Shown in pieces: positions 2,658 through 11,534 of a DNA stretch of 11,534 bases. The DNA is taken from contig JAZDLW010000025.1 in assembly GCA_043801595.1 (NCBI GenBank), positions 1 to 11,534 of the forward strand, read 5' to 3'. The position numbers and the translations under genes are program-made. The number at the start of each line of letters is the position of its first letter. The stretch's first letter is position 1. The notes below the pieces were generated by a model. That model was not told the DNA's origin, searched no databases, and worked only from the letters and a program-made list of their open reading frames with translations. The stretch comes from Candidatus Aenigmatarchaeota archaeon (GTDB lineage Archaea; Aenigmatarchaeota; Aenigmatarchaeia; JACPZZ01).

Positions 2658-3344
2658 TTAATAAACCTTGCCGAGAGATTCCAGAAGTCTTGGAAGGGTT
2701 TTTATGTCTTTCAGGTACGCGTCCGGCTTTATTTCCGCGCGTTTGGCGCCGGTGTTTCCGTACGAAGCGAGAATCGTCGTCATGCCGAGCGCTTTCGCGC
2801 CTTTCACATCGCGAAGCAGGTTGTCGCCGACCATCACGCACTCCTTTGGTTTTACGTTTAATTTTTTCGCGATTGCCATAAAAGGCTTCGGGTGTGGCTT
2901 GTATTTGCGGGTGTCTTCGTAAGCGATGACGGCGTCGAAAGAATTTTCAAGGCCCATTTCAACGAGCCGTGACCATGCCTGTATAGCGGGCGCGTCGGAC
3001 AATATTGCCAGCTTGTATTTTTTTCCGAGTTTGCGCAGAACGTTTTTTACATTCGGGTACGTGATCAACTTTTCATTTTTCATCCTTCGGTAGGCGATTA
3101 TTCCCGCAGCCATTATTTTATAATCTACTTTTCCCGTCAATGCCTTGAGCAAAGGCTGGAATATCTTCTGGTATTCTATGCCCTTTTCGTCGTAAATCCT
3201 GAACAAAGTTTTCCACGCCTTGCGTTTCGGCGTTTTTAACCCGGCCTTTTTCATCGCGTTGATTGCAGCATTACAGCTCGCTATTTTCGTTCCCATGAAA
3301 TCTATCAGGGTGTTGTCCAGATCGAATATGACCGCTTTTATCAT
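2658..3344 (-). CDS. HAD-superfamily hydrolase, subfamily IA (phosphatase/nucleotidase-like)
   Basis: Motif I IFDLDNTL, motif II ILSD, motif III YKPHPKPF, motif IV MVGDNLLRDV. Confidence 0.93.
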   Translation of the reverse strand: MIKAVIFDLDNTLIDFMGTKIASCNAAINAMKKAGLKTPKRKAWKTLFRIYDEKGIEYQKIFQPLLKALTGKVDYKIMAAGIIAYRRMKNEKLITYPNVKNVLRKLGKKYKLAILSDAPAIQAWSRLVEMGLENSFDAVIAYEDTRKYKPHPKPFMAIAKKLNVKPKECVMVGDNLLRDVKGAKALGMTTILASYGNTGAKRAEIKPDAYLKDIKTLPRLLESLGKVY

Positions 3345-3803: not shown

Positions 3804-4799
3804 TTAAAGCGTTTCATAAACTGCCGGAATTATTCTTAGTGTCCTGTTCGCACGGTAAAAATCCATGAGATGAAGCGCCCAGCCTACGAGCCTGTTAAGT
3901 CTCGGATCGTTTTTGCCGTAAACTTGTCCCAATGCATTGGCGTTCATTTTTCTCTGCCCTATCACGCGCTGCGGGTTATCCGGGTGGACGTACCTTGTCA
4001 ATTCAACAAAATTTTCTTTGTCTATATCGTATTCGACATACAGGCTTGTGTGAAGGAGAAACTTTCTTGGACGTCGCGAATCGTTTTCAACTTCGGCAAT
4101 GCACTCAGCCGACTCCTCATCGAGCAGATCCTGTTCAAGCGTATTGTTAAAATGAAGATAGCCTGCGTTTCTCATTAAGGTTTGCCACGTATGTATTTCT
4201 TCGTGCCTTTCCGTAACAGCGCTCGCGCTTATTTGAATAGCCGCAGGTTTTCTTGGTTCGCCTTCCCGGAACCATTCTCCTTGATATACGGGAAAATAAT
4301 CAGTGCGCGCAAAGAATATTGAACCGCTCAATGCTCTTCGCACTTCTGGTTTTATGTCGTATGGGGAAAGGCATAGGCCGTTTGATGAGGCGAATCCTTT
4401 TTTGAAATCCAATGCGGCGCAAGTATAATAAAATTGTTCGCCGCTCATGGAAAACTGCAGGCTGTAAGGCCGGCGCTGGGTTTCTATTTTTTGCGATTCG
4501 TCGTTGAAAGGCATGTCGCGCAGAATCTCCTGCGGAAATATTTTTGCGAGCAGTTCGGCGCCTGTTTCTTCGAACTCCGAAACAGAGTTTATCCGGTCGT
4601 ACGCGATTGCGCCAAGATTCCTGAAACGCCCGCCGTCTTTTAACCTGGCTGCGGTTGAATTGACAAATCCGTGGAACGCAACTGCGTCGCAGTGCCTGTT
4701 TCCGAGCCTTTGCGCCATTGTTTCGAGTTCCATCAGCGCTTTGGCGTCGTCCAGAATATGTCTTATTTTCAACGCTTCGCGGGGACCAAAAGTTAACAT
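3804..4799 (-). CDS. Hypothetical protein with HEEIH (HExxH) motif, possible zinc-binding/gluzincin-like
   Basis: 331-aa ORF; HEEIH at 4191-4205 followed ~25 residues later by DEESAE. Confidence 0.75.
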   Translation of the reverse strand: MLTFGPREALKIRHILDDAKALMELETMAQRLGNRHCDAVAFHGFVNSTAARLKDGGRFRNLGAIAYDRINSVSEFEETGAELLAKIFPQEILRDMPFNDESQKIETQRRPYSLQFSMSGEQFYYTCAALDFKKGFASSNGLCLSPYDIKPEVRRALSGSIFFARTDYFPVYQGEWFREGEPRKPAAIQISASAVTERHEEIHTWQTLMRNAGYLHFNNTLEQDLLDEESAECIAEVENDSRRPRKFLLHTSLYVEYDIDKENFVELTRYVHPDNPQRVIGQRKMNANALGQVYGKNDPRLNRLVGWALHLMDFYRANRTLRIIPAVYETL

Positions 4800-4937: not shown

Positions 4938-5879
4938 ATGAAGTCGCTGACGGATCGTGCGCTGTTGCGAAAAGCAAGGACTGCCTGCAAACGAGCGAAT
5001 AAAGTCCTTTATTTATTGACATACCTTTTTCCGAAAGAGAAGCGCGCGCCCACACTTTTTTTATATTATTATTTCAGGGGCATAGACGACGAGATAGATA
5101 AGAAAGGCTTGACAGAAACATCGCGGATGAAAACCATAAATTACTGGAGAAAGCGCATGGAGGGGTTGTTCGAAGGAAAACTTCCAAACGACATGAACGA
5201 CAAGGACAGGGCGCTTTACAATTTCATACAATATGACCCGAAAATGGCAGAGGGAATAAAGCCGCAGATAGGAAACATCTTTGACATAATGGAGTTCGAT
5301 TCGAAGAATCGCAATAAACTTGTTTCATATGAAGATCTTATCCATTACTGCTATCTCACAGGCGGCGCGCCTTTCATTATTGCGCTGTCGCTTCTGGACC
5401 AGCGGGTAGACGAAACGACAAAAGAAAATATAGCGCAGACGCTAGGTGTTGGTATACAGCTCGCGCACATTCTGCGGGATTTCAAAGAGGATTTGCGATT
5501 AAAAGATGCGAAGATAACGACAACGGAGACTGTTAAATTTAACCTGCTTGGCTCCAATTTGAAAAACGTAGAGACGTGGAGGCAGTTTGCGATCCAGCGC
5601 GTTGAAGAGGCTGCGAAATTCCTTGACGACGGAAGAAGGTACATAAAAGAAATACCGAGCAACACGCTGAAATTTTCTTTGGCTTTGTGGAGATGGAAAT
5701 ACCTTTCAATTCTCAAAAAAATACAATTGCGCGATTACGATCTGATGTCGAACTACAAAAAAACGAAACCGAGGGAGCTGTTTGCATCGTTGTCAATACT
5801 GGTAAAAGAATTATCGTACGTTGTCGTGAATATTTTCAAACCGAGGCGAGCGTCACACCGTCCGTTTTTTGTGAAATAA
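4938..5879 (+). CDS. Phytoene/squalene synthase family protein (head-to-head prenyl diphosphate condensation)
   Basis: First Asp-rich motif YYYFRGIDDEID, central DLIHYCYLTGG, second motif LGVGIQLAHILRDFKED. Substrate (FPP vs GGPP) cannot be determined from the sequence. Confidence 0.88.
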   Translation: MKSLTDRALLRKARTACKRANKVLYLLTYLFPKEKRAPTLFLYYYFRGIDDEIDKKGLTETSRMKTINYWRKRMEGLFEGKLPNDMNDKDRALYNFIQYDPKMAEGIKPQIGNIFDIMEFDSKNRNKLVSYEDLIHYCYLTGGAPFIIALSLLDQRVDETTKENIAQTLGVGIQLAHILRDFKEDLRLKDAKITTTETVKFNLLGSNLKNVETWRQFAIQRVEEAAKFLDDGRRYIKEIPSNTLKFSLALWRWKYLSILKKIQLRDYDLMSNYKKTKPRELFASLSILVKELSYVVVNIFKPRRASHRPFFVK

Positions 5880-6546: not shown

Positions 6547-6580
6547 AGAATGCAATTTGAATTTAGGATTGAGTTCAAAC
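6547..6580 (-). other. 3' arm of the pre-23S processing stem (helix 1 + BHB)
   Basis: RNA GUUUGAACUCAAU-CCUA-AAU-UCAAAUUGCAUUCU pairs with 10605-10639. Confidence 0.85.
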
Positions 6581-6744
6581 ACTTCAGGTTTTTGGGGATC
6601 GCGGGCTGAACATCTCGTTGCCTTGATGCGTACACCCCGATTCCATCAAACTCGTCGTCTACGAGACCTTTTTATTCGCACCGATGCATTGCTGCACCAG
6701 TTTGAAAATGATCGCCTAGTATTTGAGGACAGTTTCGGACTTAG

Positions 6745-6909
6745 TTAAGCAGAAAAAAGCTGGATCATCTAACCCAAATGTAACACCCGTTTTCACAGTA
6801 ATGCAAAAATTTTTGCAAACTCAACGGACTGACCATTGGGACAACTATTAGCTAAAGCAGACGTAATTTTGCATGGCATCTGCTTCAATTAAATTCCAAC
6901 TGATCTCTT
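6745..6909 (-). other. BHB-type (endonuclease-spliced) archaeal intron, 165 nt, after ~U2754 (H97 loop), no ORF
   Basis: Removal restores CUGAAAGCAU|CUAAG. The junction folds as a canonical BHB: central helix AAGC/GCUU, bulges AU|A and AA|C with both splice sites after bulge nt 2, intron stem AGAGA/UUUCU plus AGUUGG/CCAGCU, exon stem GGACU/AGUCC. Confidence 0.9.
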
Positions 6910-7185
6910 ATGCTTTCAGTCCTTAACTGCATACAGCGTGGCTGCCCAGCAATGCCGTTTCCGACAACTGGTAAACTAGTGGCTGCGGCAGGATGTTCCT
7001 TTCGTACTAATTCTGCCTTCCTCTCAGGCGATTGACACCAACAATAGATAAAGACCGAACTGTCTCACGACGTTCTAAACCCAGCTAAAGTCCCCCTTTA
7101 ACCAGTGAACACCTGTACCCTTGGCTGCTGCTGCACAGCCAGGAGGGGGGTAGCCGACAGCGACGCCTCAACGCGCGGGGTCGAT

Positions 7186-7321
7186 TTGTTCTCGCCCAGC
7201 ACTCCGTCCTAAACGGCTGAAAAATATTCTTGCGAATAGTTTTCAGCCGGCTATTTTCCGTTTGGTTTAGACCAGATTGTGATCTAATCATTAAGGAAGA
7301 TACTAAATGAGTGCAGACGAA
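7186..7321 (-). other. BHB-type archaeal intron, 136 nt, after ~U2477 (H89 apical loop), no ORF
   Basis: Removal restores GAGUUCCU|AUCGAC. BHB: central helix GUUC/GAAC, bulges CU|U and AA|A, intron stem UCGUCU-GCACUC/GAGUGC-U-GGGCGA, and an internal GCAA-capped hairpin. Confidence 0.9.
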
Positions 7322-7919
7322 AGGAACTCTCGCCCGCCACGAACCCATTATCCCCGAGGTAGCTTTTCTGATACACCAAGCCCCCATTCAGGAGGCATTG
7401 GGGATCGCTAAATCACGCTTTCGCGGCTGGAACCCTTGCTTTTCAGGATCCAGTCAGGCTAGCTTTTGCTTTTACACTCTTCTCTCCATTTCTGACGGAG
7501 ATGAGCTAACCATAGAGCACTCTTGATCTCCTGTCAAGAACGTACCGCCCCAGTCAAACTGCCCATCTAGCGGTGTCATGGATCTTTGTAATCCAATAAG
7601 CAATACAATCAAAAAAGGGCTGTGTTACATTGGCGCCTATACACGATCCGGAAACCGTGTCTTGGCAGCTCCAGCCTACACTATGCAATTCTAATCGTAC
7701 CGCAGCACCAGACTGCAGTAAAGCTCTACGGGGTCTTCTCTTCCCATTGTTGGTCTCAGGTCTATTCACCTGAATGACAATTTCACTGGGTCTCTACCCG
7801 GGACAGCGCGAAAGTAGTTGAGCCTATCATGCGGGTCGACATTTAATCGACAAGGGATTACGCTACCTTAAGCACCTGACTTACATTGCTGTAAGAGTCG
7901 GACCATATCATCGTTCTTT

Positions 7920-8432
7920 TCAAAACGTTTGGCGTATGGTCTCTGAGGATCCCACTTGATCCAATATTTCTTCTAATTTGTGTTTTCTCTGCTTTCCTTC
8001 GAGATTCATTTCGTAAGCCTTTCTTACGAGTTGCTTGAATCTTTCCAAATCGGAATGCTCTTTGTTTTCCAGAGCCCTCACGATTTCTGAAAACTTTCTG
8101 AAGTCGTCGTTCTTTGCTATTGGTTCAAATTTTTCAAAGAACGATAAAACCTTTTCAGCCAATTGCTTGCGGTTATCTACAAGAAAGACCAGAAGATCTT
8201 CTTGGCCGGATTTTTCTATTATTCTTCCACAACCAAGTTCCTTTTTGAATAACTCCAGCACAATTTTATTTTTCTTGTGCTGTGTTACCTGAAAGATCGG
8301 ATCCAAAGTAAATCCGAATCTTGCTGTATCTTCTCTTTTTACCGCAACACTGAAACAGGCTTCTCCATCAGAAAATCCAAGCAGATAGTAACGAAGGAAG
8401 TTTTTGTTTTTCTGAAGTTTACTCAACTCCAT
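7920..8432 (-). CDS. LAGLIDADG homing endonuclease, single-motif (homodimeric I-CreI/I-CeuI type)
   Basis: YYLLGFSDGEACFSV motif, FQVTQ and LGCGRI segments; 170 aa, intact, inside the group I intron. Confidence 0.93.
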   Translation of the reverse strand: MELSKLQKNKNFLRYYLLGFSDGEACFSVAVKREDTARFGFTLDPIFQVTQHKKNKIVLELFKKELGCGRIIEKSGQEDLLVFLVDNRKQLAEKVLSFFEKFEPIAKNDDFRKFSEIVRALENKEHSDLERFKQLVRKAYEMNLEGKQRKHKLEEILDQVGSSETIRQTF

Positions 8433-8438
8433 AAATCA

Positions 8439-8446
8439 ATCACCTC
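8439..8446 (-). promoter_or_regulatory. Shine-Dalgarno site for the intron-encoded endonuclease
   Basis: GAGGUGAU 6 nt upstream of ATG 8432; matches the archaeal SD consensus. Confidence 0.8.
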
Positions 8447-10604
8447 TTTGTGGTTTCCTGCTGATTGTCCCTCATTGTTTTCGGGGTTTGTTACTTTCTC
8501 AGTACCCCTAAACTCTTGGAGTTCCAGCATATAGCCAAATTTAACGACCGCCTTATTCTCTTTGCTAACGGTCAGAGTTACCGCCGCCGTATAGCGGGGC
8601 TTCACCCGGTTGAAACCAGGCTTTACACACCGCCACTGGGCAGGCTTTAAGATCTGTACGAACCATTACTGGCTAGCAGATCCCAGCGTTTTTATTAAAC
8701 AGTCCCTCTCGCCTTGTTACTGAGACCAGCTCATCACTGAGCTGGCACTCCTTATTCCGAAGTTACGGAGCTAGATTGCCGATTTCCCTGGGTAGAGTTC
8801 ACCCAACACGTCTTCGCCTTCTCAGCGTGGACACCTGTAGCGGTTCTTGATACGGACATCTGGAATCCTTACTGCTCTTATTTCATGGACCCCAGGATTC
8901 GGTAGAATACCCTTGCGGGTACCACTCACACATTCATTTGATTCTCCTCATTAAGAGACTCCTCAAACTTAGATGCTTGGCAGTGACGATGGTCACTGTC
9001 CACTTATCCAGAGGCGTAGATGCAGTCACGCCTTGCGGCACGTATCCAGATGGTGCAGGAATATTAACCTGCTTGCCTTTTCGGTTTTACCCAGTTAGGG
9101 CTAACCTTAGGATCGACTAACTCCTGGTTGACGAACGTTGCCAGGAAACTCTTGTCCTTTAGACGGTCAAGATTCACACTCGACTTTGCTGTTACTATCG
9201 GTAGGATTCTTACTTCCCAAAGGTCCACTTCTTCTCACGAAGGAGCTTCTGCCCTAAGGGAACACCCCCTTACCACTTTGGAACAAATTCCAAAATCCAA
9301 GGTATCGGTAGTTAACTTAGTCCCTTCCATTTTGGGCGCCCCAATTCTAGACGGGTCAGCTATTACGCACTGTTTAAAGGGTGGCTGCTTCTGAGCCAAC
9401 CTCCCCGCTGTTTAAGAACTGAGACATCCTTTGCCACTTAGCTAACATTTAGGGACCTTAACCTTGGTCTCCGTTGTTCCGGTCTCGGATACCGAGCTTA
9501 CCCCGGTAACCTCACTCCCGTCTTCTACGACGATTACAGTTTCCGAGTTTGACAGGAAATCTGTCTCTTTCGAAACTTGGATTCCCAATCAGTGCTGTAC
9601 TCTGTAATCAATCTCCGACGAGGCTGAGCTGAGGCTCATTTCAGGGGGAACCAGCTATCCCTGATCTCGATTGGCTTTTCACCCCTAATCCCTGGTCTCG
9701 GGAACGGATTGAATACCAGAACCCCTAACGGCCCTCCACCCCGATTTCTCGGGGCTTCAGCCTACCAAGGACTAGATCGACCAGATTCGGGTTTTATTCC
9801 GGTGACTTCCCGCGCTTTCACACGGCGTTCCTAGCTGCACGAAGCAGTTGCGAACTTGTCGCTTTCGCTTTGACTCCACCGCTTAACGGCTTAGTCTCGC
9901 CACAGAAATAAACTCCCTACCGCGTTTTTCAAAACGTACGACACCACTCCGGCATCCTTCCCCTTACAAAACCCTCACGAGTTCTTCATTCGGAAGGAAG
10001 ATCCTTTCGAGCAGTGTCCGGCTATTGCCATTTGGTTTCAGGTTCTTTTCATTCCCTTTCAAGGGTTCTTTTCAACTTTCCGTCACCGTACTAATATTCT
10101 ATCGGACTTCGTTTGTATTTAGCGTTGGATGTAAATGCCACCCAAATTCCCACAACATATCCAAGTTGCGGTACTCAGGATACTTGGTATCCACCTTCTT
10201 TTCTTCGCCTACGGGGCTATCACCCTGTGTCGCGCTTCTTTCCAGAAGCTTTGGCTCAAAAAGCTGGGCAGAACCCAAGTCCTATAACTCCACATCTCCC
10301 CTACCTCGTCGATAGGGGATTCGGTTTGCGCTGTTGCGCTTTTACTCGCCGTTACTAACGCAATCTCAATTGATTTCTTTTCCTGGGGCTACGAAGATGC
10401 TTCAACTCACCCCGTTCTCTTTCGGAAGCCTGACACACACTTGCGTGTGTGTCTAGCTACCCGAACGTTAGAAGTTTATTCTAACAGGATGTCCCATTAG
10501 GAGATCCCTGGATCAAAGGCTGTATGCGCCTACCCAAGGCTTATCGCAGCTTACCACGTCCTTCTTCGACAACCGAAGCCGAGTCATCCACCAAATGGCG
10601 TCGA

Positions 10605-10639
10605 GTTTGAACTCAATTTTCCTATTTAATTGCCATTCT
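10605..10639 (-). other. 5' arm of the pre-23S processing stem (BHB + helix 1)
   Basis: RNA AGAAUGGCAAUUAAA-UAGG-AAA-AUUGAGUUCAAAC; UAGG pairs with CCUA (6564-6567), flanked by 3-nt bulges AAA and AAU. Confidence 0.85.
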
Positions 10640-11225
10640 TTGAACGAATTTTTTAAATTCGATCAAAAAGACTTTTTTTCATTGAACTACTGAAACGAAA
10701 ATATTTTTTTAGAATATCTGTTGTTCCAGTAATCCACTGCGGCCTGCCTATGATGCATCATTACGATAAAGCCCCCGATGGGACTCAGTATCATTTCGCC
10801 CGGATCTGCAAAGCATCTGCAAATCGTCGTAATTGATTCCTATACAAGCTCCAAAGGTGTTCTTTCTCGTCATCGGGTAGCGAGAAACAGGTTTTACCTG
10901 TTTCAGCTTACTACGCTCTTGAGACAGTTACTTCGCGTCATTGCCTGTGCAAACTAAAACACAGTTCATGTGTTTCGGTCTGCGTTTGGTTTGAAAAGAT
11001 GTTACTCGTTCCAAACCATTCGTATCTGTTATGTTTCCTACTATAATACTATAATATTAGCAGCCAGACAGTATCCGGCAACGAGGTGTCGTATATCCGA
11101 AACCTCTCCAGTCTTTTGCTGGTCGGCACGCTTTTTCATGCCAGTCTTTAAGACTGTAAAAATAGTTCCAATGCAGGTTTATTGTCCTGTCATACTAACC
11201 AGCAGAATTATATTCAACCGACTAG

Positions 11226-11242
11226 TATTTAAGGTTTTTCGG
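11226..11242 (-). promoter_or_regulatory. Candidate BRE + TATA promoter of the 23S transcription unit
   Basis: Minus strand CCGAAAAAC-CTTAAATA, a good archaeal BRE-TATA match facing the 23S; predicted start near 11200. Confidence 0.65.
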
Positions 11243-11450
11243 AATTCTAGTAGTTCAAGAAGTAAGATAAACTTGCATTTTAGCCTTAGTTTTTAGCCGT
11301 CTTCAAGTCAATTTTTCTTGGCTAACGCCAGCAGAACACACCAAAACGGTGACAATACAGCTTGTAAATCAGGTGTTTTCGGTAAAATACGACAAATGCC
11401 TATAGAAGCCTCTAAGCAAAAATCAGGTGCTTTTATCGGGAAGAATATTG

Positions 11451-11534
11451 CTATGTAATATCCTGCTTAAAAATTTTCATGAAAAACTTGAGCCTGACCA
11501 CCATCTTCAGGAACCTTTCAGCCCCTTCTAGCTC
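11451..11534 (-). CDS. Possible C-terminal end of a gene entering from beyond the window (ELEGAERFLKMVVRLKFFMKIFKQDIT*)
   Basis: Longest minus-strand frame open from the window edge, ending at TAG 11451-11453; too short to verify. Confidence 0.3.
   Translation of the reverse strand, partial: ELEGAERFLKMVVRLKFFMKIFKQDIT

What the first reader, a model, noticed from the sequence alone, without database searches (positions are those of the whole stretch)
6745..8567. One archaeal 23S gene needing two splicing chemistries: a group I ribozyme plus two BHB introns
Seen: three insertions whose exact removal restores conserved rRNA. One has a full group I core (1923); two have textbook BHB junctions (~2477, ~2754). 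Established: BHB introns are cut by the archaeal splicing endonuclease EndA and ligated by RtcB, and are best known in crenarchaeal rRNA. Group I introns self-splice and occur in uncultured archaea. Inference: counting the terminal processing BHB, maturation needs three EndA events and one self-splicing event on a single precursor. I do not know of this mix being characterised in one molecule.
Basis: partly seen in the sequence, partly recalled or inferred. Interest (0 to 1): 0.82.

Follow-up and report, generated by a model that had tools for sequence, protein, structure and literature searches.

The report
23S introns, one carrying pseudouridine guide
This small archaeon's large ribosomal RNA gene is split by one predicted self-splicing intron and two likely enzyme-cut introns, a mix already published, but one enzyme-cut intron also carries a predicted guide RNA that would chemically modify the same ribosomal RNA right beside the self-splicing intron's cut site.

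Summary
All three inserts are real and exact: a 695-nt group I intron with a LAGLIDADG gene at 1923 (7873-8567) and strict BHB introns at 2477 (7186-7321) and ~2754 (6745-6909). The host is an Aenigmatarchaeota-like genome.

RNA contigs skip both BHB introns to the base and join the 23S ends at the predicted terminal BHB (circular 23S). RNA support for the group I junction is weak. No matched DNA excludes intron-free strains.

The claimed novelty fails. Group I plus BHB introns in one archaeal rRNA gene is in Nawrocki 2018, and recurs in 9 of 44 L1923 loci here.

It is kept in all 5 genus copies, and its arms co-vary with helix 69 in other families, where it is free-standing or sits in the 2477 intron. 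Its target overlaps the group I P1 helix. Cbf5, Nop10 and L7Ae are encoded.

I found no paper on rRNA-intron H/ACA guides. This scan noted similar cases on other DNA. Pseudouridylation is inferred, not shown.

The parts
6562..10618 (-). 23S rRNA precursor as released at the terminal BHB; 3061 nt after removing the three introns; ends joined into a circle in RNA contigs
   Evidence: RF02540; length; joint 10618->6562 in RNA runs X1 and X7
10618..10624 (-). 5' half of the terminal processing BHB (4-nt central helix strand 10624-10621, bulge 10620-10618, cut before 10618)
   Evidence: joint
6561..6567 (-). 3' half of the terminal processing BHB (central helix strand 6567-6564, bulge 6563-6561, cut after 6562)
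   Evidence: joint
7873..8567 (-). Group I intron (IB4-like) at LSU 1923: P1 8573-8568/8551-8546, P3 8539-8534/7933-7928, P4 8529-8525/8463-8459, P6 8458-8457/7948-7947, P7 7943-7937/7905-7900, P8 7927-7922/7917-7912, P9 7895-7890/7885-7880, terminal G 7873
7920..8432 (-). Single-motif LAGLIDADG homing endonuclease gene, 170 aa, in the P6 loop; its 3' end overlaps the ribozyme core; Shine-Dalgarno-like element just upstream
   Evidence: PF00961 E 1.3e-16; PDB hits incl. an archaeal rRNA-intron endonuclease 3E54 and I-CeuI 2EX5; start context
7186..7321 (-). BHB intron at LSU 2477 (tip of helix 89); central helix 7327-7324/7191-7188; holds a 21-nt segment conserved in 3 of 3 genus copies, target unknown
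   Evidence: skipped exactly in RNA run X10
6745..6909 (-). BHB intron at LSU ~2754; central helix 6915-6912/6750-6747; host of the guide hairpin
   Evidence: skipped exactly in RNA runs X1, X7, X9
6765..6843 (-). Predicted box H/ACA guide hairpin: lower stem 6840-6836/6777-6773, 5' arm 6834-6830, upper stem 6828-6823/6791-6786, K-turn G.A pairs 6822-6821/6794-6793, 3' arm 6784-6780, ANA 6770-6768
8570..8581 (-). Guide target in helix 69: arms pair with 8581-8577 and 8574-8570; predicted modified uridine 8576 (U1915). 8573-8570 are also the exon strand of the group I P1 helix

Best explanation
The 23S precursor is likely matured by three EndA cuts with RtcB ligation (two BHB introns plus the terminal BHB, whose joined products appear in RNA contigs) and one predicted group I self-splicing step, and the excised 165-nt third intron likely serves as a box H/ACA guide directing Cbf5 to pseudouridylate U1915 in helix 69 of the same rRNA. 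Shown: the three inserts, their motifs and covariation; exact exon joins at both BHB sites and the end-to-end join in RNA; presence of endA, rtcB, cbf5, nop10 and L7Ae; the guide's anatomy and unique match. Inferred: the enzymes that do the cutting, ribozyme activity, homing by the endonuclease, circularisation of the excised intron, and pseudouridine formation. Also inferred: the guide acts after group I splicing, because four of its ten target bases are bound in P1 until then.
For: Splicing: strict BHB at both short introns and at the ends. At 2477 the intron's 3' end tracks the exon letters across families (four different central-helix sequences; 4/4 paired in 8 of 11 relatives' inserts). 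Group I helices P3, P4, P6 and P7 are paired in all ungapped cells across 27 L1923 introns, with two-sided changes in P3, P4 and P7. RNA: a 303-nt X1 contig with 0 differences skips 6745-6909; a 204-nt X10 contig with 0 differences skips 7186-7321; 10618 is joined to 6562 in X1 and X7. DNA run X3, a near-identical relative, keeps both BHB introns. One endA (201 aa, closest to M. jannaschii 1A79) and one rtcB. Guide: the only Watson-Crick 5+5 match among 443,669 genomic U sites and best of 688 U in the mature 23S; random arms hit any 23S U with P 6.6e-4. It aligns to the 3' hairpin of Rfam HgcG/Pab40 with nearly the same pocket (weak, E 1.6). It is conserved in 5 of 5 genus copies while the flanks differ. 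Its arms change in step with helix 69 in G017 and G042. One model hit per genome, always in this intron, in 5 of 7 genus genomes. Cbf5, Nop10 and L7Ae are present. Pseudouridine 1915 guided by the Pab40/Pf7 hairpin is described in other archaea (PMC2584109 passages).
Against: No DNA run matches the X1 or X10 samples, so their intron-free RNA could come from intron-free strains. The group I join has only 14-22 letters on its short side, in conserved sequence, below the tool's 31-letter bar. RF00028 is below its cut-off. Gar1 was not found in the 86%-complete genome. The box is AGA/AUA, not ACA. In the computed fold of the 165-nt circle the ANA is mostly paired (unpaired probability 0.18-0.26) and the 5' arm about half paired. 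Covariation within the five genus copies alone is modest (2 pairs changed on both sides; 20 of 500 shuffles as high; one upper-stem pair broken in 2 of 5). No modification data exist.
Confidence: 0.78

Rival explanations
1. Splicing is as described, but the hairpin in intron 3 does not make pseudouridine. It is a relic of a captured guide, or it binds helix 69 or the P1 exon strand only as a folding or splicing chaperone.
For: Non-ACA box; ANA largely paired in the circular fold; Gar1 not found; the target overlaps P1.
Against: Both arms, the K-turn and the 14-nt spacing are kept in 5 of 5 copies while the rest of the intron drifts. The guide is kept in G004, which has no group I intron at 1923. 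The same geometry, with a true ACA box, occurs free-standing in G031. ACA is dispensable for typical single-hairpin guides in H. volcanii (PMC7075261 passages).
Confidence: 0.12
2. The RNA contigs come from intron-free strains. In this organism the short inserts are cut out without ligation, giving fragmented rRNA, or stay in as expansion segments.
For: No matched DNA for X1 or X10. The group I intron is sporadic in the genus: absent in G004, endonuclease-less in the X2 relative.
Against: Intron 3 is present in 4 of 4 same-genus loci and intron 2 in 2 of 2 that cover the site. DNA run X3, 98-99% identical in exons, keeps both. RNA joins fall on the BHB cut positions to the base, and the terminal BHB is ligated in the same run.
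Confidence: 0.07
3. The mix of introns is an assembly chimera.
For: The genome is a metagenome bin (86% complete, 32 contigs), and no laid run spans the whole gene.
Against: G005 has the same three introns in one contig (last 40 nt of the group I intron identical, then 2477 and 2754). Independent DNA runs X2 and X3 carry the inserts in place.
Confidence: 0.02

Closest known systems
Archaeal IB4 group I introns at LSU/1923 co-occurring with BHB introns (Nawrocki, Jones and Eddy 2018, PMC6125680; e.g. IB4.28 Aenigmarchaeota, IB4.17 Micrarchaeota)
   Same: [quoted passage not shown] The intron aligns at about 65% with the IB4.28 contig (L096).
   Different: That work is computational and does not mention intron-borne guides in the text I read. 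Here RNA contigs show the BHB joins and the circular join.
BHB introns of archaeal rRNA genes cut by EndA and joined by RtcB
   Same: Strict 3-4-3 junctions, exact exon ligation, covariation of the central helix.
   Different: DPANN host. I found no mention of sites 2477 and ~2754 in the papers read, but they recur: 2477 in 11 of 18 class loci covering it, ~2754 in 5 of 19. Intron 3 carries a guide rather than a nuclease.
Pab40/Pf7/Afu4 (Rfam HgcG, RF00064) 3' hairpin and Haloferax sR-h45 stem-loop 2, H/ACA guides for helix 69
   Same: Near-identical pocket to the HgcG 3' hairpin, K-turn above a 6-bp upper stem, ANA 14 nt below the pocket top, target in the helix 69 loop.
   Different: A single hairpin inside a BHB intron of its own target rRNA rather than a separate RNA gene; AGA/AUA in place of ACA; pocket fits U1915 only in the simple UN register.
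Circular 23S rRNA of archaeal ribosomes (PMC12918454, 2026)
   Same: 5' and 3' ends joined at the terminal BHB, with no flanking precursor seen in RNA contigs.
   Different: The passages read do not name Aenigmarchaeota (0 hits); here the circle also needs three introns removed.
Guide RNAs inside archaeal tRNA introns (pre-tRNA-Trp box C/D guide; recalled, not checked in a call)
   Same: A BHB intron that encodes a modification guide for its own host RNA.
   Different: Here the host is rRNA, the guide is H/ACA type, and the target lies about 840 nt upstream in the mature RNA.

Membership tests
Group I intron (IB4, L1923) | U.G pair at the 5' splice site in P1 and terminal G | tested here: met
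   P1 6 bp with U8568.G8551, G7873; P1 with U.G found in 21 of 27 introns, and the 6 misses had 5' ends mis-picked by my script and were not repaired
Group I intron (IB4, L1923) | P3-P7 pseudoknot core with G-binding site, P4-P6 domain, P8, P9 | tested here: met
   pairing and covariation in 27 introns (P7 and P8 coordinates were off by one and corrected in 47)
Group I intron (IB4, L1923) | Score above the curated Rfam cut-off or subtype model | tested here: inconclusive
   RF00028 28.8 bits against a cut-off of 50, E 2.6e-5; the IB4 model was not run; PMC6125680 reports RF00028 also missed its archaeal introns
Group I intron (IB4, L1923) | Guanosine-dependent self-splicing | not testable with these tools
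   RNA join 7872/8568 seen only with 14-22 letters on one side
BHB intron | Two 3-nt bulges around a 4-bp helix, flanked by helices | tested here: met
BHB intron | Exons ligated at the cut after the second bulge base | tested here: met
   exact joins 6744/6910 and 7185/7322 in RNA contigs with 0 differences; matched DNA lacking
BHB intron | EndA and RtcB in the host | tested here: met
BHB intron | Excised intron circularised | tested here: inconclusive
   no intron contigs in RNA runs X1, X7, X9, X10; contigs drop rare and small RNAs
Archaeal box H/ACA guide | Hairpin with lower stem, bipartite pocket, upper stem | tested here: met
   96.9% of cells paired in 5 copies, against 21-52% for slid controls
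Archaeal box H/ACA guide | K-turn 5-6 nt above the pocket | tested here: met
   tandem G.A above a 6-bp stem, 3-nt bulge ending in U, invariant in 5 of 5; rule from PMC7991803 passages
Archaeal box H/ACA guide | ACA/ANA box 14-16 nt from the target | tested here: met
   ANA at 14 nt (AGA in 4, AUA in 1 of 5); not a literal ACA
Archaeal box H/ACA guide | Arms pair on both sides of an unpaired UN in the target | tested here: met
   5+5 Watson-Crick pairs around U1915, unique in the genome; arms co-vary with target in G017 and G042
Archaeal box H/ACA guide | Cbf5, Nop10, L7Ae, Gar1 encoded | tested here: inconclusive
   three found; Gar1 not found in an 86%-complete genome
Archaeal box H/ACA guide | Pseudouridine formed at the target | not testable with these tools
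   contigs carry no modification signal
LAGLIDADG homing endonuclease | Intact single-motif LAGLIDADG frame | tested here: met
   PF00961 61.8 bits against a cut-off of 23.1, 170 aa, acidic residue at the catalytic position
LAGLIDADG homing endonuclease | Cleaves the intron-free 1923 site | not testable with these tools
   none

The most novel reading that the evidence does not exclude
A self-guiding rRNA gene with ordered, coupled maturation. The genus has moved its only helix-69 pseudouridine guide into a BHB intron of the 23S gene, which makes that intron indispensable and explains why it is fixed while the group I intron comes and goes. EndA must release the guide and the group I ribozyme must release bases 1918-1921 from P1 before pseudouridine 1915 can form, so the two splicing chemistries gate one modification at the subunit bridge. 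Capture of this guide into 23S introns has happened at least twice in the class (at ~2754 here, at 2477 in G042).
Probability: 0.4. Interest if true: 0.75.

Novelty: new variant of a known kind. Interest (0 to 1): 0.55.

Why it matters
The headline mix is already in print, so that part is ordinary. Two things add value. First, public RNA data show exact ligation at both BHB introns and at the terminal BHB for a DPANN 23S gene of this mixed kind, where the 2018 report was computational. Second, an rRNA intron that hosts the H/ACA guide for its own rRNA would be an archaeal parallel to intron-encoded snoRNAs. It would give a reason why nuclease-free rRNA introns persist in small genomes. It also offers a compact in vitro system to ask whether splicing must precede helix-69 modification.

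Tried and rejected
Intron RNA: no contig of any intron was seen in RNA runs X1, X7, X9 or X10. Flanking precursor was not seen either, so this is no evidence for or against.

BHB around the group I intron (a transition form): central helix 0/4 at the true junctions. My classifier called L105's 1923 insert BHB at a shifted junction; one search shows it is a group I intron.

Guide in intron 2: no Watson-Crick antisense stretch of 9 nt or more to the mature 23S. Only 8-10-bp matches with G.U pairs, or weak U-rich H/ACA fits, were found. The 16S test used G004's unspliced gene, because this genome's 16S was not found. Unresolved.

A second helix-69 guide in this genome: none by the covariance model, by RF00064 or by a motif scan that gave 10 rows, of which only the intron copy aimed at helix 69.

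Weak model hits L128 and L129: arms do not fit helix 69; L130-L134 were printed or listed but not tested.

Metagenome scan for the guide pattern: 0 matches.

Leader 10619-11534: no Rfam family.

The roughly 33-nt extra near 10430-10460 folds as a plain hairpin extension, not a BHB, by eye.

Nawrocki supplement: 0 hits for BHB and 2477, one irrelevant hit for 2754. The file was cut when stored and Figure 1 is not held, so its BHB positions were not seen.

Literature searches for intron-borne H/ACA guides or these sites showed no such report in titles or abstract starts. The library lacks most subscription papers.
Full report
SETTING. The window is the whole of contig C1 of an 814-kb, 86%-complete genome. 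The closest relatives of its EndA (80-83% identity) are in records titled Aenigmatarchaeota or uncultured archaeon, so the host is a DPANN archaeon. The 23S gene is on the minus strand (RF02540, 2446 bits). No 16S gene was found in the assembly.

OBSERVATION. Three inserts leave contiguous rRNA when removed: 7873-8567, 7186-7321 and 6745-6909. The two short ones have strict BHB junctions (central helix 4/4, intron helix 4/4), and these lie in the minimum-energy fold. Random position pairs give the motif in 0.2-0.3% of draws. The ends of the gene form a third BHB that predicts cuts before 10618 and after 6562. The long insert has no BHB at its junctions. It has P1 with U.G at the splice site, P3, P4, P6, P7, P8, P9 and a terminal G. 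In 27 L1923 introns with both ends recovered (the window plus 26 of 44 loci), P3, P4, P6 and P7 are paired in every ungapped cell, with two-sided changes in P3, P4 and P7. RF00028 scores it at 28.8 bits, below the cut-off. A 170-aa LAGLIDADG frame sits in the P6 loop.

RNA AND DNA EVIDENCE. Six of 24 listed runs were laid. In RNA run X1 a 303-nt contig with no differences skips intron 3 exactly; relatives in X7 and X9 do the same. In RNA run X10 a 204-nt contig with no differences skips intron 2, and X1 shows the same join as a 16-letter loose end. X1 and X7 join 10618 to 6562 with 68 and 78 letters on the short side, the predicted terminal cut, which matches the circular 23S described in PMC12918454 (passages). 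The group I join appears in X1 (depth 571) and X10 but with only 14-22 letters on one side, so it does not meet the tool's bar. DNA run X3 keeps both BHB introns with small indels, and X2 keeps intron 3 and an endonuclease-less group I intron. No DNA matches the X1 or X10 samples, so intron-free strains are not formally excluded. Against that, intron 3 is in 4 of 4 same-genus loci and intron 2 in 2 of 2 that cover the site. One endA, closest to the M. jannaschii enzyme 1A79, and one rtcB are present.

IS THE MIX NEW? No. [quoted passage not shown] Among 44 loci matching an archaeal L1923 pattern, my script found 6 with both kinds; three more were added by eye after (L083, L104, L105), giving 9 of 44, some loci being partial. 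I took 20 relatives' loci, chosen from 46 matching genomes for long matches. They hold 96 inserts, 56 scoring as BHB with a shift allowed, and G004 in the same genus has 17. An insert at 2477 occurs in 11 of 18 loci covering the site. Its central helix is 4/4 paired in 8 of 11 and follows the exon sequence; 3 are imperfect or poorly aligned. The ~2754 site is interrupted in 5 of 19. Three introns are a light load for this group.

Earlier notes of this scan suggested looking for guides in such introns. Intron 3 varies from 137 to 292 nt across five genus copies, yet a 73-79-nt core is kept at 87% column identity. It folds as a hairpin with a 5-bp lower stem, a two-sided pocket, a 6-bp upper stem, a K-turn with a 3-nt bulge ending in U, and ANA 14 nt below the pocket top. 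These fit the rules given in PMC7991803 (passages). The arms pair 5+5 around U1915 (window 8576), leaving UN free. This is the best of 688 uridines in the mature 23S (next best 3+4) and the only Watson-Crick 5+5 site among 443,669 in the genome; random arms hit any 23S uridine with P 6.6e-4. An Rfam scan of the intron aligned this hairpin to the 3' hairpin of HgcG/Pab40 with nearly the same pocket, at a weak E of 1.6. Pseudouridine 1915 made with that guide family is described in PMC2584109 (passages). A model of the five copies hits once per genome, always in this intron, in 5 of 7 genus genomes; the other two had no 23S match. Among 74 genomes outside the genus, six gave weak hits only. Homologues found with RF00064 and the model co-vary with their own helix 69: G017 (outside the rRNA gene) and G042 each change both arms to match changed targets, and G031 has an ACA-box copy outside the rRNA gene. 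G042's copy lies inside its 2477 intron. Cbf5, Nop10 and L7Ae are encoded; Gar1 was not found.

AGAINST. Covariation inside the genus alone is modest (20 of 500 shuffles as high). The box is AGA or AUA. In the computed circle the ANA is mostly paired, although PMC7075261 (passages) reports that typical single-hairpin guides work without ACA. No intron RNA was seen and no modification data exist.

HOW IT LIKELY WORKS. EndA would cut the two introns and the terminal stem, and RtcB would join exons and ends into a circular 3061-nt 23S. The ribozyme would splice itself out, and its nuclease would spread it to empty 1923 sites, which fits its patchy presence in the genus. The released intron 3, probably a 165-nt circle, would bind L7Ae at the K-turn and Cbf5-Nop10 at the lower stem and convert U1915. 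Bases 8573-8570 belong both to the guide duplex and to P1, and P1 is the stronger helix (-9.7 against -5.4 kcal/mol for that arm), so modification likely follows group I splicing. In G004 a BHB intron splits the target itself, so there the guide can act only on spliced RNA. All of this ordering is inference.

NOVELTY AND SCORE. The mixed-intron gene and circular 23S are known kinds. An H/ACA guide inside an rRNA BHB intron aimed at its host rRNA did not appear in my searches (listings only, library incomplete). Unchecked notes of this scan describe similar guides on other genomes, and no note matches this sequence. Verdict: new variant of a known kind, interest 0.55.

Noticed in passing
window 7345-7344 and 7164-7160 (minus strand; E. 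coli 2452-2453 and 2499-2503): The peptidyl transferase centre departs from the archaeal consensus: U2452, G2453, G2499, C2503. It is lineage-wide: U2452 in 15 of 18, G2453 in 16 of 18, and no A at 2503 in 19 of 19 class loci; C2503 in 32 of 42 of the L1923 set. The bioRxiv paper on divergent archaeal centres (10.1101/2024.11.12.623245; passages and section 6) names Thermoprotei and Methanomethylicia and has no mention of 2503 or Aenigmarchaeota.
   Followed up: partly
window ~7284-7264 (inside intron 2): A 21-nt segment is identical in all three genus copies of the 2477 intron while the rest diverges; no convincing target was found.
   Followed up: partly
L033 (G004:C2:17000-28000): A same-genus 23S gene with 17 inserts, six of 577-919 nt, including one inside helix 69 and inserts within the terminal stem; all four same-genus loci have an insert near the 3' end (ref ~3040) that the window lacks.
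   Followed up: partly
L039:3535-3627 (G042): A helix-69 H/ACA-type hairpin inside the 2477 BHB intron of another family, with arms matching that genome's changed helix 69.
   Followed up: yes
L116:333-410 (G004, upstream of 16S): A second H/ACA-like hairpin with the same K-turn style in the 16S leader; no target found in the unspliced 16S.
   Followed up: partly
G000:C23:157166-157809: The fibrillarin gene is read in two frames, with the shift near a short A run; no BHB intron explains it, so it is an assembly error or a true frameshift.
   Followed up: partly
window 10619-11290: About 670 nt of hairpin-rich, non-coding leader upstream of the 23S with short blocks shared with G004; no Rfam match.
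   Followed up: partly
G000, several contigs: ARAGORN calls introns in 20 of 37 tRNA genes; some calls look doubtful and none was checked.
   Followed up: no
L001:1195-1800 (G000:C13): EndA has a 6-residue insertion just before the catalytic His relative to M. jannaschii EndA.
   Followed up: no
window 4938-5879, 684-2627, 2658-3344, 3804-4799: Neighbouring genes: squalene/phytoene synthase family, acetyl-CoA synthetase, HAD hydrolase, and a 331-aa frame with no Pfam match.
   Followed up: no
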